The notes under the pieces: model-generated
What the model was told of the DNA's origin: nothing
Seen by the model: the letters and a program-made list of their open reading frames with translations, nothing else
Databases searched by the model: none
In this document: positions 11,166 to 58,254 of the stretch, piece by piece
How the letters are laid out: each line of letters begins with the position of its first letter
Numbering within the stretch: position 1 is the stretch's first letter
Sequence record: NC_055721.1
Length of the DNA: 64,000 nucleotides
Source: Escherichia phage EcS1
Direction: 5' to 3' (one strand)
Made by a program: the position numbers and the translations under genes

Positions 11166-11591
11166 ATGTTAATGCTCCCTGAAGACCACGAATTAGTAAT
11201 CGATAATGTCGAAGCTCTGATTCCTGAAGCACAGGGTCGCCTTGACATCTTGTCGAAAGCACTTGATAAAGCCGATATAAATAAAATTGTAGAGAACATG
11301 CTGAGTGATAATACCGATTTGGCTATTGCACTTGGTTCTCTCAATGAAGATATGCAATTAAATGAATTCATTGTTAAACATGTTTCTAGTCGTGGAGAAA
11401 TTACTCGTACTAAAGACCGTAAAACACGTGAACGTAATGCTTATCAGACAACTGGCTTATCTAAAGCAGCTCGTCGTCAAATTGCTCGCAAGGCGACCAA
11501 AACAAAACGCGCTAATCCGTCTATCACCACGCGTGCCCAACGTAAAAAGAAAAAAGCGATGGCCAAGCGTAAAGCATTTGGACTAAGCTAA
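11166..11591 (+). CDS. 68: Prohead core protein gp68
   Basis: 141 aa, same length as T4 gp68; basic C-terminus. Confidence 0.7.
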
Positions 11592-13095: not shown

Positions 13096-14655
13096 ATGAA
13101 AAAGAACGCTCTCTTAGAAAAATGGCAGCCACTGCTGGAAAATGAAGAACTGCCAGAAATTGTTGGTGCTTCAAAACAAGCCATTATCGCTAAAATCCTG
13201 GAAAACCAGGAAAAAGACTTTACTACTTCCCCTGAATACAAAGATGAAAAAATCGCAGAAGCTTTTGGTTCGTTCCTGAGTGAAGCAGAAATTGGTGGTG
13301 ACCATGGTTATGATGCAACCAATATCGCTGCTGGTCAAACCTCTGGTGCTGTAACTCATATCGGTCCTGCTGTAATGGGTATGGTTCGTCGTTCAATCCC
13401 TAATCTGATTGCTTTCGATATCTGTGGTGTTCAGCCGATGAATAACCCTACTGGCCAGGTGTTCGCACTGCGTGCTGTGTATGGCAAAGATCCAATCGCA
13501 GCTGGCGCTAAAGAAGCATTCCACCCAATGTTCGCTCCAGATGCAATGTTCTCTGGTCAAGGTGCTGCTGAAGTATTCCCTAAAGCAACCGCTGGTAAAG
13601 TGTTAGCTGTTGGTGATATTGTAGTTCATGATTTCGAACAAACTGGTCGTGCTCATCTTCAAACTGTAGTTGCTTTCACTATTGATGCTGCTGCTACTGA
13701 TGCTGGTAAACTGGACGTAGAAATCACTAAGCAATTAGAAGCTGGTAAACTGGCTGAAATCGCTGAAGGTATGGCTACCTCTATCGCCGAATTGCAAGAA
13801 GGCTTTAACGGTTCTACTGATAATGCTTGGAACGAAATGGGCTTCCGTATCGATAAACAAGTTATCGAAGCTAAATCTCGTCAGCTTAAAGCTGCTTACT
13901 CTATCGAACTGGCTCAAGACTTACGTGCTGTTCACGGTATGGACGCTGATGCCGAACTGAGTGGTATTCTGGCTACAGAAATTATGCTGGAAATTAACCG
14001 TGAAGTAATCGACTGGATTAACTATTCAGCACAGGTTGGTAAAACCGGTATGACTCAAACTGTTGGTTCTAAAGCCGGTGTGTTTGACTTCCAAGACCCA
14101 ATCGATACGCGTGGTGCTCGTTGGGCTGGTGAAAGCTTTAAAGCTCTTCTGTTCCAAATCGATAAAGAATCAGCTGAAATCGCACGTCAAACCGGTCGTG
14201 GTGCAGGTAACTTCCTGATTGCTTCACGTAACGTTGTTAACGTACTGGCTGCTGTTGATACCAACGTATCTGTAGCTGCTCAAGGTCTGGGTCGTGGTTT
14301 CGAAACTGATACCACTAAAGCCGTATTTGCTGGTGTATTGGGTGGACGCTACCGTGTCTATATCGACCAGTATGCACGTCAAGACTACTTCACCATGGGT
14401 TATAAAGGTTCTAACGAAATGGATGCTGGTATCTACTACGCGCCATACGTTGCACTGACTCCGCTGCGTGGTTCCGATCCTAAGAACTTCCAACCAGTAA
14501 TGGGCTTCAAAACTCGTTATGGTATCGGTATTAACCCATTCGCTGACCCAGAAGCTCAGGCTCCTAAAGGTCGTGTCGTGTCTGGTATGCCTTCATTGGC
14601 TAACAGCATCGGTAAAAACGGTTACTTCCGTCGTGTGTTCGTTAAAGGTATCTAA
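13096..14655 (+). CDS. 23: Major capsid protein gp23
   Basis: 519 aa; long stretches identical to recalled T4 gp23 (e.g. IGGDHGY, NIAAGQTSGAVT, GPAVMGMVRR, YYAPYVALTPLRGSDPKNFQPVMGFKTRYGIGINPFA). Confidence 0.98.
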   Translation: MKKNALLEKWQPLLENEELPEIVGASKQAIIAKILENQEKDFTTSPEYKDEKIAEAFGSFLSEAEIGGDHGYDATNIAAGQTSGAVTHIGPAVMGMVRRSIPNLIAFDICGVQPMNNPTGQVFALRAVYGKDPIAAGAKEAFHPMFAPDAMFSGQGAAEVFPKATAGKVLAVGDIVVHDFEQTGRAHLQTVVAFTIDAAATDAGKLDVEITKQLEAGKLAEIAEGMATSIAELQEGFNGSTDNAWNEMGFRIDKQVIEAKSRQLKAAYSIELAQDLRAVHGMDADAELSGILATEIMLEINREVIDWINYSAQVGKTGMTQTVGSKAGVFDFQDPIDTRGARWAGESFKALLFQIDKESAEIARQTGRGAGNFLIASRNVVNVLAAVDTNVSVAAQGLGRGFETDTTKAVFAGVLGGRYRVYIDQYARQDYFTMGYKGSNEMDAGIYYAPYVALTPLRGSDPKNFQPVMGFKTRYGIGINPFADPEAQAPKGRVVSGMPSLANSIGKNGYFRRVFVKGI

Positions 14656-14671
14656 TACTTTAAAAAATTAT

Positions 14672-14697
14672 GGGAGACTTCGGTCTCCCATTTTTGT
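14672..14697 (+). terminator. Terminator after gene 23 (GGGAGAC-TTCG-GTCTCCC + ATTTTTGTTT)
   Basis: Hairpin plus T-run. Confidence 0.8.
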
Positions 14698-14708
14698 TTC
14701 TGAAGCTT

Positions 14709-14728
14709 TATAAATAAACTTATAAATA
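14709..14728 (+). promoter_or_regulatory. Tandem late promoters (two TATAAATA boxes) upstream of gene 24
   Basis: Boxes at 14709-14716 and 14721-14728. Confidence 0.6.
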
Positions 14729-14740
14729 AACTTATAAACA
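14709..14740 (+). repeat. Tandem 12-bp direct repeat (TATAAATAAACT x2.7) carrying two perfect TATAAATA boxes
   Basis: tataaataaact tataaataaact tataaaca read directly. Confidence 0.85.
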
Positions 14741-14755
14741 AAAGAGGAATGTGCA

Positions 14756-16036
14756 ATGAGCAAAATTCATACCCTGTTGCGCGAATCTACAACTACGAGC
14801 AGTTCGTCTCTTGGGCGTCCCGACCTCGTTGCATTGACTCGCGCCACGACTAAATTAATCTATAGCGATATTGTGGCAGAACAACGTACATCTCAACCAG
14901 TTGCGGCATTATATGGTATCAAATATTTGAACCCTAATGATGATATGACCTTTACTTCTGGTGCTACTTATGCTGGCCCATTCGGTACTAAAGAACGCAA
15001 AACGGTAGTTGAAATTACTGATGCAAATAAAGCAACATTTACAACAGGCAAATACTTCAAATATAAAGATATCGTTTATAAAGTATTAGGTGTTTCTGTT
15101 ACCGATGGGACTACTGAAACCGATCTTGATTTTATGATTCAAGAATCAATGGTTCTTTTGAATATTCGAAGTGTGCACGAAGCAGCTGAAACGGCTAAAT
15201 TTGAAGCCTCTGATGTAGAAGTATCTGAAGCATCATTTGAAGTGTCTAAATGGAATGCTCCAGTTAAATCACGTAAATTAAAAACAGCTTTGACTGTTGA
15301 ATTGATGCAAGACCTTGAAGCTAATGGATTCAATTCGCCTAATTTCGTAGAAGATCTTTTGGCTACCGAAATGGCTGATGAAATTAATAAAGACATTATC
15401 CAGTCATTGATTACAGTTTCTAGTCGTTATAAAGTTACTGGTGAAACAGATAAAGGCATTCTTGATTTAACTACTGTTGAAGACCCGTTAGCTGGACGTA
15501 AATTGTATCGTATGGTATGTGAAATCAATTCGCATATTCAAAGAACAACTTCTTATTCAGGAACTTATGTCGTTGCATCAACTCGTGTCGCTGCTGTATT
15601 AGCTTCTTCAGGTTGGTTAAAACATAAGCCAGAAGATGACCAATATCTGTCACCGGCTGCATATGGATTCTTGGCTAATGGTCTGCCACTTTATTGTGAT
15701 GCAAGTTCACCATTAGATTATGTTATTGTTGGTGTTAAAGAGGACTTTGGTGAACTAGAAATGGTTGGCTCATTGTTCTATGCGCCGTATACTGAAGGAT
15801 TGGATTTAGAAGACCCTGAACACGTAGGTGCGTTTAAGGTAATTGTTGACCCGGAATCTTTGCAACCATCTGTTGCATTACTGGTTAGATATGCTCTGTC
15901 AGCGAACCCTTATACAGTAGCTAAAAACGAGGCTGATGCTCGTATTATTGATGCTACTGATATGGATAAAATGGCAGGTCAAAGTGATATGTCTGTATTG
16001 CTTGGTGTTAAGTTACCGAAGTTAATTGCAGGCTAA
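14756..16036 (+). CDS. 24: Capsid vertex protein gp24
   Basis: 426 aa, gp23 paralog position and size. Confidence 0.9.
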   Translation: MSKIHTLLRESTTTSSSSLGRPDLVALTRATTKLIYSDIVAEQRTSQPVAALYGIKYLNPNDDMTFTSGATYAGPFGTKERKTVVEITDANKATFTTGKYFKYKDIVYKVLGVSVTDGTTETDLDFMIQESMVLLNIRSVHEAAETAKFEASDVEVSEASFEVSKWNAPVKSRKLKTALTVELMQDLEANGFNSPNFVEDLLATEMADEINKDIIQSLITVSSRYKVTGETDKGILDLTTVEDPLAGRKLYRMVCEINSHIQRTTSYSGTYVVASTRVAAVLASSGWLKHKPEDDQYLSPAAYGFLANGLPLYCDASSPLDYVIVGVKEDFGELEMVGSLFYAPYTEGLDLEDPEHVGAFKVIVDPESLQPSVALLVRYALSANPYTVAKNEADARIIDATDMDKMAGQSDMSVLLGVKLPKLIAG

Positions 16037-17078: not shown

Positions 17079-17119
17079 AAATCACCATATTAAAATAATT
17101 AATCTTCTAGCCCCAGGCT

Positions 17120-17127
17120 TATAAATA
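17120..17127 (+). promoter_or_regulatory. Orphan TATAAATA box in loop of AGGC/GCCT hairpin, no adjacent + strand gene
   Basis: Perfect box; nearest + gene (hoc) is 660 nt downstream. Confidence 0.3.
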
Positions 17128-17176
17128 GGCCTCTGAACCATTATATCGAATATATCACATATATTCTTAAAGCATA

Positions 17177-19666: not shown

Positions 19667-20375
19667 TTATAACTTGGAAACTTGAATTACGCGTTTCACG
19701 AACGCGAACTAACCCATCACGCTTAATGTAATATAAAAGACTTAATATCGTATCAATACCGTAGTGGTGTGGGAACGAATGCGGATTCACTTTCCATTCT
19801 GGGTTCTTTGTAATCCATTCATAAATCCACCAAGGTAGAGTTACATAAGTTAATCCACGTCCAATTTGAGCTAATGTAGGACTGAAATCTTTTGGAAGCT
19901 CAAATACCTTTTCAGATTCAATAATCTGTTCAATAGCTTTTTCAAGAGCAGGGAGATCTTCTTCAGTCATAGGCTTGGTTGGGATAGTTTCAATGCCTTC
20001 GCTATGAATAACTGTAACAACTTCACCAATTGGAGCTTGAATAGAGTTAATGATTTTAGCTTCAACGGAAGGAGCTCCGATAGAATCGATCAAAAGTGTC
20101 TTGGCTTCATCTTTAGCTTCATCTTTAAAAACAGAAGTGCCAGTGAGTTCATCATCAGCTTGAATCAAATCAGAGATACTCATTCCGCCAATATCTTCAG
20201 GCATTGGTTCAGAAGCAAGTTTTTTCATTTCTTCTGACAAGTCAGCAACCATGTTATCAAATGACTTAGTTTTCTTTAAAGTTATGTTGAAAGTAAGAGC
20301 GTAGTCGGCCAGTTTTTCTTTGGCTTCTTTTTTGTCTAGCTCACGAAGTTCGTCAATATAAATTTTATCAATCAT
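19662..20375 (-). CDS. Hypothetical acidic protein in the position occupied by inh in T4 (identity not confirmed)
   Basis: 237 aa ORF; synteny between hoc and uvsW; sequence not recognised. Confidence 0.5.
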   Translation of the reverse strand: MIDKIYIDELRELDKKEAKEKLADYALTFNITLKKTKSFDNMVADLSEEMKKLASEPMPEDIGGMSISDLIQADDELTGTSVFKDEAKDEAKTLLIDSIGAPSVEAKIINSIQAPIGEVVTVIHSEGIETIPTKPMTEEDLPALEKAIEQIIESEKVFELPKDFSPTLAQIGRGLTYVTLPWWIYEWITKNPEWKVNPHSFPHHYGIDTILSLLYYIKRDGLVRVRETRNSSFQVIK

Positions 20376-24144: not shown

Positions 24145-24170
24145 AAAATAGTTCCTCTTATATGTGTATT

Positions 24171-24178
24171 TATAAATA
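24171..24178 (+). promoter_or_regulatory. Late promoter TATAAATA upstream of gene 51
   Basis: Perfect box 17 nt before ATG. Confidence 0.6.
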
Positions 24179-49593: not shown

Positions 49594-51855
49594 TCAAAGT
49601 TTACAAGAAGAGCAATCTTCTTCTTTTGGAACTTCGATTTCATAATCATCAGTACCAGAACCATCACGAGTATTATGATAGTAAGCTGTCTTACCACCGA
49701 AGTACCACAGATGAAGCATATCATCCATCATGACTGACATCGGAACCTTACCTTTAGGGTAGTTCTGTGGGTCATAGTACATGTTAGTAGAAATAGACTG
49801 ACATACGAATTTCTGCATAATTGCTACTTGATTCAAGTAACCTTTATTACCAGATTTCGCTAACTTCCAAGCATAATCATAAAGATCAACATTAGTATCA
49901 ACATTAGGCACAACTTGGTTAAAGGAACCTTCTTTCGATTCTTTAACACTTACAGGCCCACGTGGCGGCTCGATACCATTAGTGCTATTTGATACCTGGC
50001 TCGAAGATTCACAAGGCATGAGCGCGGATAAGGTACTGTTACGGATACCGTAACTTCTGAGGTCTTCCCGCAACTGTTCCCAGTCACAAACGTACGATGG
50101 GGCTGCGAGTTGGTCAATCTTTTTATTGTACCAGTCGATAGGTAACTCGCCTCTAGACCAACGAGTGTCTGAATAATACTCGCAATGGCCTTTTTCTTTC
50201 GCTAATTTGACTGATGCTCTGATGAGTGCATATTGAAGTCTTTCCATCATTTCGTGAGTTAAATCGTTTGCATCATTATATGATGCAAAGTTATCAGCTA
50301 ACCAAGCAGCATAGTTCGTGATACCAACACCGAGTGCACGACGTTTTTTAGCTTTCAAAGCTTCCGGGACAGGATAACCTTGATAGTCTAATAAATTATC
50401 TAAAGCACGAACTTGTACTTCGGCTAATTCGTTAATTTCGTCTTGGTTCTGCCAATCGAAGTTACCGAGTACATAAGCAGATAAAGTGCAAAGTGCGATT
50501 TCTGGGTCTTCACCACCAACGTCTTTAGTAGGAAGCGCGATTTCACAGCACAAGTTTGATTGCTTAACCGTAGCCACATCACGAATAAAAGGACCATACT
50601 CACCGACGTTATCTACAAAGTAAGGGTAAATACGAGCCGTACCTGAACGTTCAGTAAAGAACAATTCGAAGAGCTCGCGAGCTTTAATTCGTTTCTTACG
50701 AACCGTAGGATCTTTTTCTAAAGCTTCATAGAAATTACGGAACTTCAGAGGGTCAGCAAAATACGCTTCGTAAAGTTCGCCTTTCATGATGTCAGGACTG
50801 AACAACGTGATGTAATCATTTTTAACCAAACGTTCAAACATCAGGTCATTAATCTGAACACCATAGTCTAGATGACGAATACGGTTTTCATCTACACCTT
50901 TGTTGTTCTTCAGAACTAACAGGTTTTCCACTTCAAGATGCCATATCGGATAATACAACGTTGCTGCACCACCACGTACGCCACCTTGTGAACAACTCTT
51001 CACTGCGGTTTGGAAATGTTTCCAGAATGGAATCACCCCAGTATGTTTGACTTCACCATGACCAATCTTAGAACCTTCAGCACGAATCATACCACCATTA
51101 ATACCAATACCAGCACGTTTACTGATATAACGAATAATAGCTTCTGCACCTTTGTTAATTGATGTCAGTGAATCACCACTTTCAATAACAACACAAGAAC
51201 TAAACTGACGAGTTGGAGTACGAACACCTGCCATAATAGGAGTAGGCAACGAAACCTTACGAGTTGAAACAGCATCATAAAAACGAACTACGTTCTTAAT
51301 ACGATGTTCACCATCATCTTGGTGCAAACACATACCGATAAGCATGAATGCAAATTGAGGCGTTTCATAAATCTTGCCAGTTGAACGATCTTTGACTAGG
51401 TATTTTTCGATTAACTGCATCGTACCAGCATAAGTGAATTCAAAGTCACGGTCGTGTTTGATTTGAGATTCAAACAACTGGATTTCTTCTGCAGACCATT
51501 TGCTTAGGATTTCGGTGTCATAAAGACCTGCGTTAACTACTGAAGAGATGTGGTCGATAAACCGAGGTGGTTCGAATTGATTGAAAACATCTTTACGAAG
51601 ACCAAACATAGCTAGATTACTTGCTACATATTGATAATCTGGTTCGTCAACTGTAATACGGTTAGCAGCAACTTTAATAACTGCTTTATGAATTTCTTTA
51701 GTGGTCATTCCATCACGCAGATGACTTTTAACTTCTTCATAAAGGTCATAAGGGTTAACGGCTATAGATGTACTTGCGCACGACCATTCAAGGACTTGGA
51801 TGATTTTACTTGGTGTAAAATCTTGACTAACGCCTGAACTTTTTATTACTTGCAT
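49594..51855 (-). CDS. nrdA: Ribonucleotide reductase large subunit (start reassigned to MQVIKSSGVSQDF)
   Basis: 753 aa from internal ATG matching recalled T4 NrdA N-terminus; C-terminal CxxC redox tail (CSSCKL). Confidence 0.95.
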   Translation of the reverse strand: MQVIKSSGVSQDFTPSKIIQVLEWSCASTSIAVNPYDLYEEVKSHLRDGMTTKEIHKAVIKVAANRITVDEPDYQYVASNLAMFGLRKDVFNQFEPPRFIDHISSVVNAGLYDTEILSKWSAEEIQLFESQIKHDRDFEFTYAGTMQLIEKYLVKDRSTGKIYETPQFAFMLIGMCLHQDDGEHRIKNVVRFYDAVSTRKVSLPTPIMAGVRTPTRQFSSCVVIESGDSLTSINKGAEAIIRYISKRAGIGINGGMIRAEGSKIGHGEVKHTGVIPFWKHFQTAVKSCSQGGVRGGAATLYYPIWHLEVENLLVLKNNKGVDENRIRHLDYGVQINDLMFERLVKNDYITLFSPDIMKGELYEAYFADPLKFRNFYEALEKDPTVRKKRIKARELFELFFTERSGTARIYPYFVDNVGEYGPFIRDVATVKQSNLCCEIALPTKDVGGEDPEIALCTLSAYVLGNFDWQNQDEINELAEVQVRALDNLLDYQGYPVPEALKAKKRRALGVGITNYAAWLADNFASYNDANDLTHEMMERLQYALIRASVKLAKEKGHCEYYSDTRWSRGELPIDWYNKKIDQLAAPSYVCDWEQLREDLRSYGIRNSTLSALMPCESSSQVSNSTNGIEPPRGPVSVKESKEGSFNQVVPNVDTNVDLYDYAWKLAKSGNKGYLNQVAIMQKFVCQSISTNMYYDPQNYPKGKVPMSVMMDDMLHLWYFGGKTAYYHNTRDGSGTDDYEIEVPKEEDCSSCKL

Positions 51856-57295: not shown

Positions 57296-57949
57296 TCAGA
57301 TTTTGCAACTCTTGATAGTTTGTATAAAGAGCGTTTTAGCTTCCAAGGGATTAATATTCAAAATCTTCTTGTAAGCTTTCAATTTAATCGAATAATTCGA
57401 CCAAACTAAATCAGTAGACAGTTCGTCATGTTTATCTATTATATCCAAAAAAGAATCAAGCAAAATAAACGTTTCAAAACTGATAACGTTTGATTGGAGA
57501 AGCTTGAAGATATAACTCGAGCTGACGTTCTTATTATACACAAATAATTCGTTAAGCGAATTGGTTTCAACTTTCTGAGCGAAGTAATACATGTTCTTAA
57601 TATCATCTTCGAACACGGTTTTAACTCGTTTCAGTTTACCAATATATTCACGATAAAATACTAACGCGTCAGCATCACTGATGTCGCCAATCCATGCATC
57701 TTGGTTAGCAACCAAGTTACTCATGAATATTAATGTTAGTTCTTTAAGAGTGTATTTGTCAGCTAGTTTTTCAAAGAAATACTTGTCACGACGTTTGTTA
57801 TAGGCTGCGTCAGAAATTCGCATGGTCCAATTATACTTTATAACGTCGTAACGACCATTAAAGTGCTGTTTGAGCATCAAATACAACATATAAACTGATT
57901 TACCATTTATATGTCGTGTATTATTAGGAGGCATGCGAATTTGAATCAT
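57296..57949 (-). CDS. 59: Helicase loader gp59
   Basis: 217 aa (same as T4); YDVIKYNW.MR.SDAAY.KRRDKYFF, VANQDAWIGDISDADALVFYREYIG, SSYIFKLLQSN.ISFETFILLDSFL.IIDKHDE. Confidence 0.95.
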   Translation of the reverse strand: MIQIRMPPNNTRHINGKSVYMLYLMLKQHFNGRYDVIKYNWTMRISDAAYNKRRDKYFFEKLADKYTLKELTLIFMSNLVANQDAWIGDISDADALVFYREYIGKLKRVKTVFEDDIKNMYYFAQKVETNSLNELFVYNKNVSSSYIFKLLQSNVISFETFILLDSFLDIIDKHDELSTDLVWSNYSIKLKAYKKILNINPLEAKTLFIQTIKSCKI

Positions 57950-58254
57950 AGCAAGAAATCCAGGGTATTTGTTCGTTGAGTACGAGCCATAGATGGACGA
58001 AGAAGATTATCGTCAATGGCTTCGCTCATAATTTTATCAATTATACCAGTCGGAATGAATCGAGCAAATTGACCTTCTGGAACAGAGTTTTCTTCAAGCC
58101 AGGCAGTCGTTACTTCAAGATAAGAAGAACCGGTTTTAGCAACCAGTTTTTCAATATCGAAGCCATTTTGTTGTTTATCTAAAGAAGTATTGATATCATC
58201 TTTAGTAATAGGGGCGCCAGCCCCATCATCATTTAGCAGGGAAAATTGAGTCAT
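57946..58254 (-). CDS. 33: Late transcription accessory protein gp33 (start at MTQFSL)
   Basis: C-terminal ENSVPEGQFARFIPTGIIDKIMSEAIDDNLLRPS...TNTLDFLL matches recalled T4 gp33. Confidence 0.85.
   Translation of the reverse strand: MTQFSLLNDDGAGAPITKDDINTSLDKQQNGFDIEKLVAKTGSSYLEVTTAWLEENSVPEGQFARFIPTGIIDKIMSEAIDDNLLRPSMARTQRTNTLDFLL

What the first reader, a model, noticed from the sequence alone, without database searches (positions are those of the whole stretch)
14700..14755. Tandemly duplicated late promoter in a 12-bp direct repeat upstream of gene 24
TATAAATAAACT is repeated about 2.7 times, giving two perfect TATAAATA boxes 12 bp apart and a third degenerate one (TATAAACA), right after the gene 23 terminator. 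Duplication of the late box could modulate the gp24:gp23 ratio or reflect slippage at a hotspot.
Basis: seen in the sequence. Interest (0 to 1): 0.35.

Follow-up and report, generated by a model that had tools for sequence, protein, structure and literature searches.

The report
Duplicated late promoter before gene 24
A T4-like phage carries one extra 12-base copy of the promoter unit in front of its capsid-vertex gene, giving two perfect late-promoter boxes where its relatives have one; this is a small, lineage-specific duplication of an ordinary, well-understood promoter type.

Summary
TATAAATAAACT occurs twice head-to-tail (14709-14732), followed by TATAAACA. It lies between the gene 23 terminator hairpin and the gene 24 start codon.

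The window comes from a 175-kb T4-like phage. That genome encodes homologues of gp55, gp33 and gp45. TATAAATA is over-represented in the window (16 against 5.8 expected), and the boxes are conserved at orthologous sites in the nearest relatives.

All seven Winklervirus relatives examined (~81% nt identity) have exactly one unit fewer (TATAAATAAACT + TATAAACC). The extra unit is therefore a private 12-bp tandem duplication, made by slippage or unequal recombination on a pre-existing 1.6-copy repeat.

The "third degenerate box" is better read as the start-site motif. In this lineage, late boxes are followed exactly 4 nt later by T-R-T-R (10 of 16 boxes). The 12-bp unit equals the distance from box to start site, so each box keeps a correctly spaced start. 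Predicted starts are A14722 and A14734.

An independent tandem-box case exists upstream of gene 24 in Escherichia phage vB_EcoM_005.

Whether both boxes fire, or whether gp24 dosage changes, is untested. This is an ordinary promoter with a minor structural variant, so interest is low.

The parts
13096..14655 (+). Gene 23 (major capsid protein) ORF, 519 aa
   Evidence: ORF list. The matching stretch is annotated as major capsid protein in CHI14, X20 and many other T4-like phages.
14670..14699 (+). Intrinsic terminator after gene 23: 9-bp stem, UUCG loop (14670-14691), then a T-rich tail
   Evidence: Terminator scan. Fold of -15.9 kcal/mol, z = -4.7. Across 14 T4-like phages, 96% of cells are paired and 6 of 9 pairs show compensatory changes.
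14709..14720 (+). Repeat unit 1, TATAAATAAACT. It contains late-promoter box 1 (TATAAATA, 14709-14716). Predicted start is A14722.
   Evidence: Box position -13..-6 is from PMC2988020. The start-site motif falls at offset 12.
14721..14732 (+). Repeat unit 2, TATAAATAAACT. It contains late-promoter box 2 (TATAAATA, 14721-14728). Its first bases TATA also serve as the start-site motif for box 1. Predicted start for box 2 is A14734.
   Evidence: One of the two units is absent from all seven Winklervirus genomes.
14733..14740 (+). TATAAACA: partial third unit, read as the T-R-T-R start-site motif of box 2 (ancestrally of the single box)
   Evidence: Present as TATAAACC in single-unit relatives. 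T-R-T-R sits at offset 12 in 10/16 window boxes and 8/16 CHI14 boxes, against a background of 0.0155 per position.
14743..14748 (+). Shine-Dalgarno region AGAGGA for gene 24
   Evidence: Sequence. The GG is invariant or nearly so in the alignment of 14 phages.
14756..16036 (+). Gene 24 (capsid vertex protein) ORF, 426 aa
   Evidence: ORF list. It is 64% identical to CHI14 gp24 and 65-73% identical to other T4-like gp24.
57946..58254 (-). Gene 33 homologue (late-transcription co-activator), part of the machinery that would read the boxes
   Evidence: tblastn with CHI14 gp33 gives 90% identity over the full length.

Best explanation
The region is the gene 24 late promoter of a T4-like phage. In this genome alone it carries one extra copy of a 12-bp unit. 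The ancestral promoter, seen in all Winklervirus relatives, is TATAAATA-AACT-TATAAAC: the late box, four bases, then the start-site motif T(-1)A(+1)TA. Because the start-site motif resembles the box, the ancestral sequence was already a 1.6-copy 12-bp repeat (TTATAAA twice, 12 bp apart). Replication slippage or unequal recombination on that repeat added one unit (inferred). The unit length equals the distance from box to start site. Each of the two perfect boxes therefore has a correctly spaced T-A start motif and an AT-rich melting region. Both should be usable by gp55-RNA polymerase with gp33 and the gp45 clamp (inferred). The two open complexes overlap (bubble -12..+2), so they are mutually exclusive alternatives. 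Predicted starts are A14722 and A14734, giving 34-nt and 22-nt leaders. The extra 12 nt is predicted to be unstructured, so translation should be unaffected. The likely net effect is neutral or a modest rise in gene 24 transcription, because the clamp-tethered polymerase gets two capture sites per pass. Shown: the sequence, the duplication relative to relatives, the conservation and enrichment of boxes, and the presence of the late-transcription genes. Inferred: use of either box, the start sites, and any dosage effect.
For: Exact tandem units. Seven Winklervirus genomes have one unit fewer, and otherwise the same terminator-box-SD-ATG layout. The doubled 30-mer occurs only in this genome in IMG/VR. 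TATAAATA occurs 16 times against 5.8 +/- 2.7 expected, and 0 of 100 shuffles reach 16. Of the 14 box loci in the window (the tandem pair counted once), 12 have a perfect box at the orthologous CHI14 site and the other two could not be aligned across the box. The conserved sites include ones whose flanks are only 76-80% identical. ATAAATA is invariant in 14 aligned gene-24 upstream regions, while sequence upstream of the box is not conserved. In Vettismorki a homing-endonuclease gene is inserted right up to the box. The source genome encodes gp55 (90% to CHI14), gp33 (90%) and gp45 (88%). T-R-T-R sits at offset 12 in 10/16 boxes, and a purine sits at offset 13 in 18/21 T4 boxes. This matches a box at -13..-6 (PMC2988020). 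The bubble spans -12..+2 and gp45 gives one-dimensional promoter scanning (PMC7892883). Both leaders have the same minimum-free-energy fold.
Against: There are no transcript data, so use of either box is unproven. Only one genome carries the duplication and no closer relative was found, so fixation, polymorphism or a sequencing error cannot be told apart. For box 1 the downstream region is itself a second box, which might compete for gp55 or alter promoter escape. Slippage and unequal recombination give the same product and cannot be separated.
Confidence: 0.7

Rival explanations
1. The duplication is real but functionally silent. Only one box is used, for example the proximal one that keeps the ancestral distance to the ribosome-binding site. 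The other is a neutral passenger, with no change in gp24 level.
For: Relatives manage with one box. The variant is private to one genome. Both leaders fold alike. T4 late promoter binding is weak and start choice could favour one site (PMC2988020).
Against: Both boxes are perfect consensus with correctly spaced start motifs. T4 late promoters need no upstream element that could tell the two apart.
Confidence: 0.25
2. The duplication is adaptive. A second box raises capture of the clamp-tethered polymerase and so raises gp24 supply relative to gp23. It would compensate for the efficient terminator after gene 23 or for a diverged gp24.
For: An independent tandem-box case lies upstream of gene 24 in vB_EcoM_005, whose relatives have one box. 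gp45 gives one-dimensional scanning. gp24 here is much more diverged from Winklervirus (about 63% nt, 64% aa) than gene 23 (about 88% nt).
Against: Two of 28 gene-24 upstream regions against 0 of about 50 other boxes is not significant. There are no expression data. The vB_EcoM_005 case has different spacing (10 bp) and altered flanks, which suggests a recombination junction rather than selection for copy number.
Confidence: 0.1
3. The extra unit is a sequencing or assembly artefact in an AT-rich short repeat.
For: There is a single genome, with no second isolate or metagenomic copy.
Against: The IMG/VR copy of the contig is identical. A clean in-register 12-bp insertion is not a typical error of modern assemblies. 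Other short perfect tandem duplications exist in the window.
Confidence: 0.05
4. The repeat acts at the RNA level, as an A/U-rich translational enhancer or protein-binding site in the gene 24 leader, rather than as promoter DNA.
For: The leader is A/U-rich and predicted to be unpaired.
Against: The conserved core is exactly the late-box octamer, shared with unrelated late genes. There is no Rfam match. Most of the repeat would lie upstream of the proximal start.
Confidence: 0.05

Closest known systems
Bacteriophage T4 late promoters (gp55 sigma, gp33 co-activator, gp45 sliding clamp), including the T4 gene 24 promoter
   Same: A perfect TATAAATA box with no conserved -35 region, an AT-rich segment downstream, and a purine about 6 nt after the box. 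It is placed just upstream of a structural gene. The same machinery is encoded in the genome.
   Different: Two perfect boxes lie 12 bp apart. No same-strand pair within 40 bp was found in 100 kb of T4. The start-site motif T-R-T-R is much stronger here (10/16) than in T4 (4/21). In T4 the homing-endonuclease gene segD lies between gene 23 and the promoter.
Gene 24 promoter of Winklervirus phages (CHI14, CBH8, X20, Kc304, Virsaitis27, LC53, Vettismorki)
   Same: The orthologous locus has the same terminator hairpin, the same unit TATAAATAAACT, the same TATAAAC start motif, and the same SD and first codons.
   Different: These phages have exactly one unit and the window has two. The window has TATAAACA where they have TATAAACC.
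Gene 24 upstream region of Escherichia phage vB_EcoM_005 (Dhakavirus)
   Same: Two perfect TATAAATA boxes in tandem upstream of gene 24, while relatives at 94-96% identity (C6, KIT01, fDHCT2) have one.
   Different: Spacing is 10 bp, not 12. The units are not identical and the flanking sequence differs from relatives, so it looks like a recombination junction rather than a clean duplication. This is an independent event in another genus.
Overlapping tandem sigma-70 promoters such as E. coli gal P1/P2 (from general knowledge, not tested here)
   Same: Two promoters a few bases apart that cannot be occupied together and that give transcripts differing by a few nucleotides at the 5' end.
   Different: A different sigma factor and a different activation mechanism. 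In gal the choice is regulated by CRP, and no such regulator is indicated here.

Membership tests
T4-type late promoter (gp55/gp33/gp45-dependent) | 8-bp TATAAATA box | tested here: met
   Two perfect copies at 14709-14716 and 14721-14728.
T4-type late promoter (gp55/gp33/gp45-dependent) | No conserved -35 or upstream element; conservation begins at the box | tested here: met
   In the alignment of 14 phages the invariant columns start at the box. In Vettismorki, T4 and dhakaviruses the upstream DNA is replaced by a homing-endonuclease gene while the box is kept.
T4-type late promoter (gp55/gp33/gp45-dependent) | AT-rich melting segment after the box and a purine start about 6 nt downstream (box at -13..-6) | tested here: met
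   14717-14735 is A/T except for C14719 and C14731. T-A falls at offsets 12-13 for both boxes. Offset 13 is a purine in 14/16 window boxes and 18/21 T4 boxes. Positions are from PMC2988020.
T4-type late promoter (gp55/gp33/gp45-dependent) | The phage encodes gp55, gp33 and gp45 | tested here: met
   The same contig holds gp55 (L156, 90% to CHI14), gp45 (L298, 88%) and gp33 (window 57946-58254, 90%).
T4-type late promoter (gp55/gp33/gp45-dependent) | Boxes enriched, sense-oriented upstream of late genes, and conserved at orthologous sites | tested here: met
   16 boxes against 5.8 expected. Most lie 17-50 nt upstream of a start codon. Of 14 box loci (tandem pair counted once), 12 are conserved at the orthologous CHI14 site.
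T4-type late promoter (gp55/gp33/gp45-dependent) | Replication-coupled, gp55-dependent primary transcript 5' end at the predicted position | not testable with these tools
   This needs 5'-end mapping or in vitro transcription.
Short tandem duplication by slippage or unequal recombination | Identical head-to-tail units, one unit absent in close relatives, and a pre-existing short direct repeat at the same period | tested here: met
   The units are 12/12 identical. Seven relatives lack one unit, shown as a clean 12-column gap. The ancestral TTATAAA occurs twice, 12 bp apart.
Intrinsic (Rho-independent) terminator after gene 23 | Stable GC-rich hairpin followed by a U-run, supported by covariation | tested here: met
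   Termination efficiency itself was not tested.

The most novel reading that the evidence does not exclude
Duplication of the late box in front of gene 24 is a recurrent, selected way for T4-like phages to raise vertex-protein supply independently of the major capsid protein. It would exploit one-dimensional scanning by the clamp-tethered polymerase, with two capture sites per pass. On this reading, the 12-bp 'box plus start motif' design of late promoters in this lineage makes them intrinsically easy to duplicate.
Probability: 0.1. Interest if true: 0.45.

Novelty: new member of a known kind. Interest (0 to 1): 0.2.

Why it matters
The finding has modest value. It gives a natural one-unit versus two-unit pair (the window phage against Winklervirus). 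That pair could test whether a second overlapping late box raises output from a clamp-activated, weakly binding promoter, and hence whether promoter copy number tunes structural-protein stoichiometry. The side observation may be more useful for annotation. Late boxes in this lineage are followed at a fixed 4-nt distance by T-R-T-R. This sharpens in-silico prediction of late promoters and transcription start sites in Winklervirus and Kagamiyamavirus-like phages. Otherwise the locus is an ordinary T4-type late promoter.

Tried and rejected
1. IMG/VR scan for TATAAATA-N(0-16)-TATAAATA.

2. Metagenome scan with a 24-mer spanning the SD and start of gene 24. It returned no hits. The same pattern in IMG/VR found only the CHI14-type genome and the window genome, so no closer relative is available.

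3. Metagenome scan with the terminator stem-loop 20-mer. It returned 45 hits, but this UUCG hairpin is generic. Only one hit was a gene-24 upstream region (single box) and three were other terminator-plus-single-box junctions.

4. Rfam scan of 14400-15000. Only sub-threshold chance matches were found.

5. RNA-structure role for the extra 12 nt. The fold and energy are unchanged, so this was rejected.

6. Coding potential. The only ORF touching the repeat is 14519-14713 (64 aa), out of frame inside the end of gene 23, and it was dismissed.

7. 'Third degenerate promoter'. Rejected in favour of a start-site motif.

8. 'Hotspot'. The counts are too small to claim one.

9. Literature search for tandem T4 late promoters at gene 24. 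Nothing relevant was found in the held library.

Full report
**Observation.** The sequence at 14700-14759 reads ctgaagctt TATAAATAAACT TATAAATAAACT TATAAACAAAAGAGGAATGTGCA ATG.
- The two 12-bp units (14709-14720 and 14721-14732) are identical, and each begins with a perfect TATAAATA.
- The next eight bases are TATAAACA (14733-14740).
- Tandem Repeats Finder reports 14708-14742, period 12, 2.9 copies and score 63, the best of 27 arrays in the window.
- Upstream lies the end of a 519-aa ORF (13096-14655), followed by a 9-bp-stem UUCG hairpin with a T-rich tail (14670-14699). The hairpin folds at -15.9 kcal/mol, z = -4.7.
- Downstream are GAGG (14744-14747) and the ATG of a 426-aa ORF (14756-16036).

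**What genome this is.** The ORFs are gene 23 (major capsid protein) and gene 24 (vertex protein) of a T4-like phage.
- The window is part of a 175,437-bp IMG/VR isolate contig.
- The nearest records in the phage collection are the Winklervirus genomes CHI14, CBH8, X20, Kc304, Virsaitis27, LC53, Vettismorki and Gravdalen, at about 81% nucleotide identity.
- The LC53 paper names Escherichia phage EcS1 (Kagamiyamavirus) as the nearest relative outside that genus (PMC10132071). The window may be that phage or something like it. This is an inference I could not verify.

**Is TATAAATA a late promoter here?**
- The source genome encodes full-length homologues of gp55 (90% to CHI14), gp45 (88%) and gp33 (90%, inside the window at 57946-58254 on the minus strand).
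- TATAAATA occurs 16 times against 5.8 +/- 2.7 expected, and no shuffle of 100 reaches 16. Most copies lie 17-50 nt upstream of a start codon in the sense orientation.
- Of the 14 box loci in the window (the tandem pair counted once), 12 have a perfect box at the orthologous CHI14 position and the other two could not be aligned across the box. The conserved sites include ones where the flanks are only 76-80% identical.
- In an alignment of 14 gene-24 upstream regions from different genera, ATAAATA is invariant and the sequence upstream of it is not conserved.
- In Vettismorki, T4 and the dhakaviruses, a homing-endonuclease gene is inserted between the terminator and the box, and the box and everything downstream are left intact.

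All of this matches the definition of T4 late promoters. That definition is an 8-bp box at -13 to -6, no -35 element, and an AT-rich melting segment (PMC2988020).

**Comparison with relatives.**
- CHI14, X20, Kc304, Virsaitis27, LC53 and Vettismorki were read directly. CBH8 was not read, but its match has the same length as that of CHI14. These genomes read gcttTATAAATAAACTTATAAACCAAAGAGGAATGTGCAATG, which is exactly one unit fewer. The pairwise and multiple alignments show a clean 12-column gap.
- The doubled 30-mer is found only in the window's own contig in IMG/VR.
- No closer relative turned up in IMG/VR or in metagenomes.

The extra unit is therefore a private tandem duplication. Which of the two copies is 'new' cannot be defined.

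**Why 12 bp, and what the 'third box' is.** I tabulated the bases downstream of every TATAAATA.

| Measure | Window | CHI14 (108 kb) | T4 (100 kb) |
|---|---|---|---|
| Boxes counted | 16 | 16 | 21 |
| T-R-T-R exactly at offset 12 from the first base of the box | 10 | 8 | 4 |
| Purine at offset 13 | 14 | 14 | 18 |

- In the window the per-position counts are T 12, R 14, T 12 and R 16 of 16.
- The background frequency of T-R-T-R is 0.0155 per position, and other offsets give 0-2 boxes.
- With the box at -13..-6, offset 12 is position -1 and offset 13 is +1. The motif is therefore the start site, a pyrimidine at -1 and a purine at +1.
- The ancestral gene 24 promoter is then box, AACT, and start motif TATAAAC. 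Because that start motif resembles the box, the sequence already contained TTATAAA twice, 12 bp apart. This is a ready substrate for slippage or unequal recombination.
- After duplication, box 1 finds its start motif in the first bases of box 2, and box 2 keeps the ancestral one.
- The predicted starts are A14722 and A14734, giving leaders of 34 and 22 nt.

TATAAACA is thus the initiation region, conserved in single-box relatives, and not a decayed third promoter.

**Likely function.**
- gp55 recognises the non-template strand of the opened box. The bubble spans -12 to +2, and gp45 turns promoter search into one-dimensional scanning (PMC7892883).
- The two open complexes here would overlap (14710-14723 and 14722-14735), so they are mutually exclusive.
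- Binding at late promoters is weak (PMC2988020). A second capture site could therefore raise total initiation modestly, or it could be neutral.
- The additional 12 nt in the longer leader is predicted to be unpaired, and the minimum-free-energy structure is unchanged. I expect no effect on translation.
- None of this is measured.

**How unusual is it?**
- No other same-strand pair of perfect boxes within 40 bp exists in the window, in 108 kb of CHI14 or in 100 kb of T4.
- Among 28 distinct gene-24 upstream sequences from IMG/VR, 22 have one perfect box and 4 have a one-mismatch box (GATAAATA or AATAAATA). Two have tandem perfect boxes: the window and vB_EcoM_005.
- In vB_EcoM_005 the boxes are 10 bp apart. 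Its relatives C6, KIT01 and fDHCT2 (94-96% identity) have one box. The flanks also differ, which suggests a recombination junction.
- One further phage (L248) has TATAAATAAACTTATAAATC, one base short of a second perfect box.
- Two of 28 against none of about 50 other boxes is suggestive but not significant.

**Context.**
- The terminator hairpin is well supported. Across 14 phages, 96% of cells are paired, 6 of 9 pairs have compensatory changes, and 0 of 500 shuffles reach the observed covariation score.
- Identity to CHI14 is about 88% through gene 23 and the intergenic region. It falls to 44-75% inside gene 24 from about 14,800 onward. At protein level gp24 is 64% identical.
- The promoter therefore sits near, but not at, a boundary of divergence.

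**Verdict.**
- The feature is real, and it is a T4-type late promoter region.
- The second box is a lineage-specific 12-bp duplication of a promoter unit whose length equals the distance from box to start site.
- It is a new instance of a known kind of element, and its functional consequence is untested.
- Interest is low. The start-site motif is a useful by-product for annotation.

Noticed in passing
window, all 16 TATAAATA sites (e.g. 20391, 59531, 24174-, 12231, 22414-); CHI14 loci L154/L211/L249: Late boxes in this lineage carry an extended motif: TATAAATA, then 4 nt, then T-R-T-R. It occurs at exactly offset 12 in 10/16 window boxes and 8/16 CHI14 boxes, but only 4/21 T4 boxes, against a background of 0.0155 per position. 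It probably marks -1/+1 of the late transcripts.
   Followed up: partly
window 24167-24178: TATTTATAAATA contains two overlapping late boxes on opposite strands, a divergent promoter pair between the gene 26 and gene 51 homologues. It is conserved in CHI14 and in T4, and T4 has a second such pair between genes 4 and 53.
   Followed up: partly
window 17110-17135: A TATAAATA box sits in the loop of a hairpin (CCAGGC..GGCCTCTG) between rnlB and 24.2. CHI14 has CCAGCC..GGGCTGG, which is compensatory. It may be a minus-strand terminator or processing hairpin that happens to hold a plus-strand box.
   Followed up: no
window 11276-11283 (inside the gene 68 homologue): An internal TATAAATA lies within coding sequence. 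It is conserved at the orthologous site in CHI14 and in T4 gene 68, so it is probably an internal late promoter for gene 21.
   Followed up: partly
L027 (Serratia phage LC53), terminator after gene 23: The hairpin reads GGGAGACCGAAGTCTCCC where all other winklerviruses and the window read GGGAGACTTCGGTCTCCC. The loop and closing pair are inverted, as if the palindrome had flipped.
   Followed up: no
L020/L239 (Escherichia phage vB_EcoM_005), upstream of gene 24: This is an independent case of two perfect late boxes in tandem (TATAAATAatTATAAATA). Relatives at 94-96% identity have one box. The flanks differ, which suggests a recombination junction next to the homing-endonuclease insertion.
   Followed up: yes
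L028 (Vettismorki), L030 (T4), L012, L018, L020 and the dhakavirus loci, between gene 23 and gene 24: A reverse-strand homing-endonuclease gene is inserted between the terminator and the gene 24 box in several lineages. These variants share a TGTAAA(C/T)A motif 3-6 nt upstream of the box. In T4 this gives a TGTAAATAACTT / TATAAATAGTAT / TATATTTC 12-bp periodicity.
   Followed up: no
window 14800-16036 versus CHI14 (L211 15982-17235): Gene 24 is far more diverged from Winklervirus (44-75% nt per 100 bp, 64% aa) than gene 23 and the intergenic region (about 88% nt). The window gp24 is closer to gp24 of other genera (70-73%). This indicates mosaicism or fast evolution of gp24.
   Followed up: partly
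window 20104-20127 and 49885-49907: Two other perfect 12-bp tandem duplications (GCTTCATCTTTA x2.0 and ATCAACATTAGT x1.9) occur. This is more than base composition predicts, so short tandem duplication may be a common mutation in this genome.
   Followed up: no
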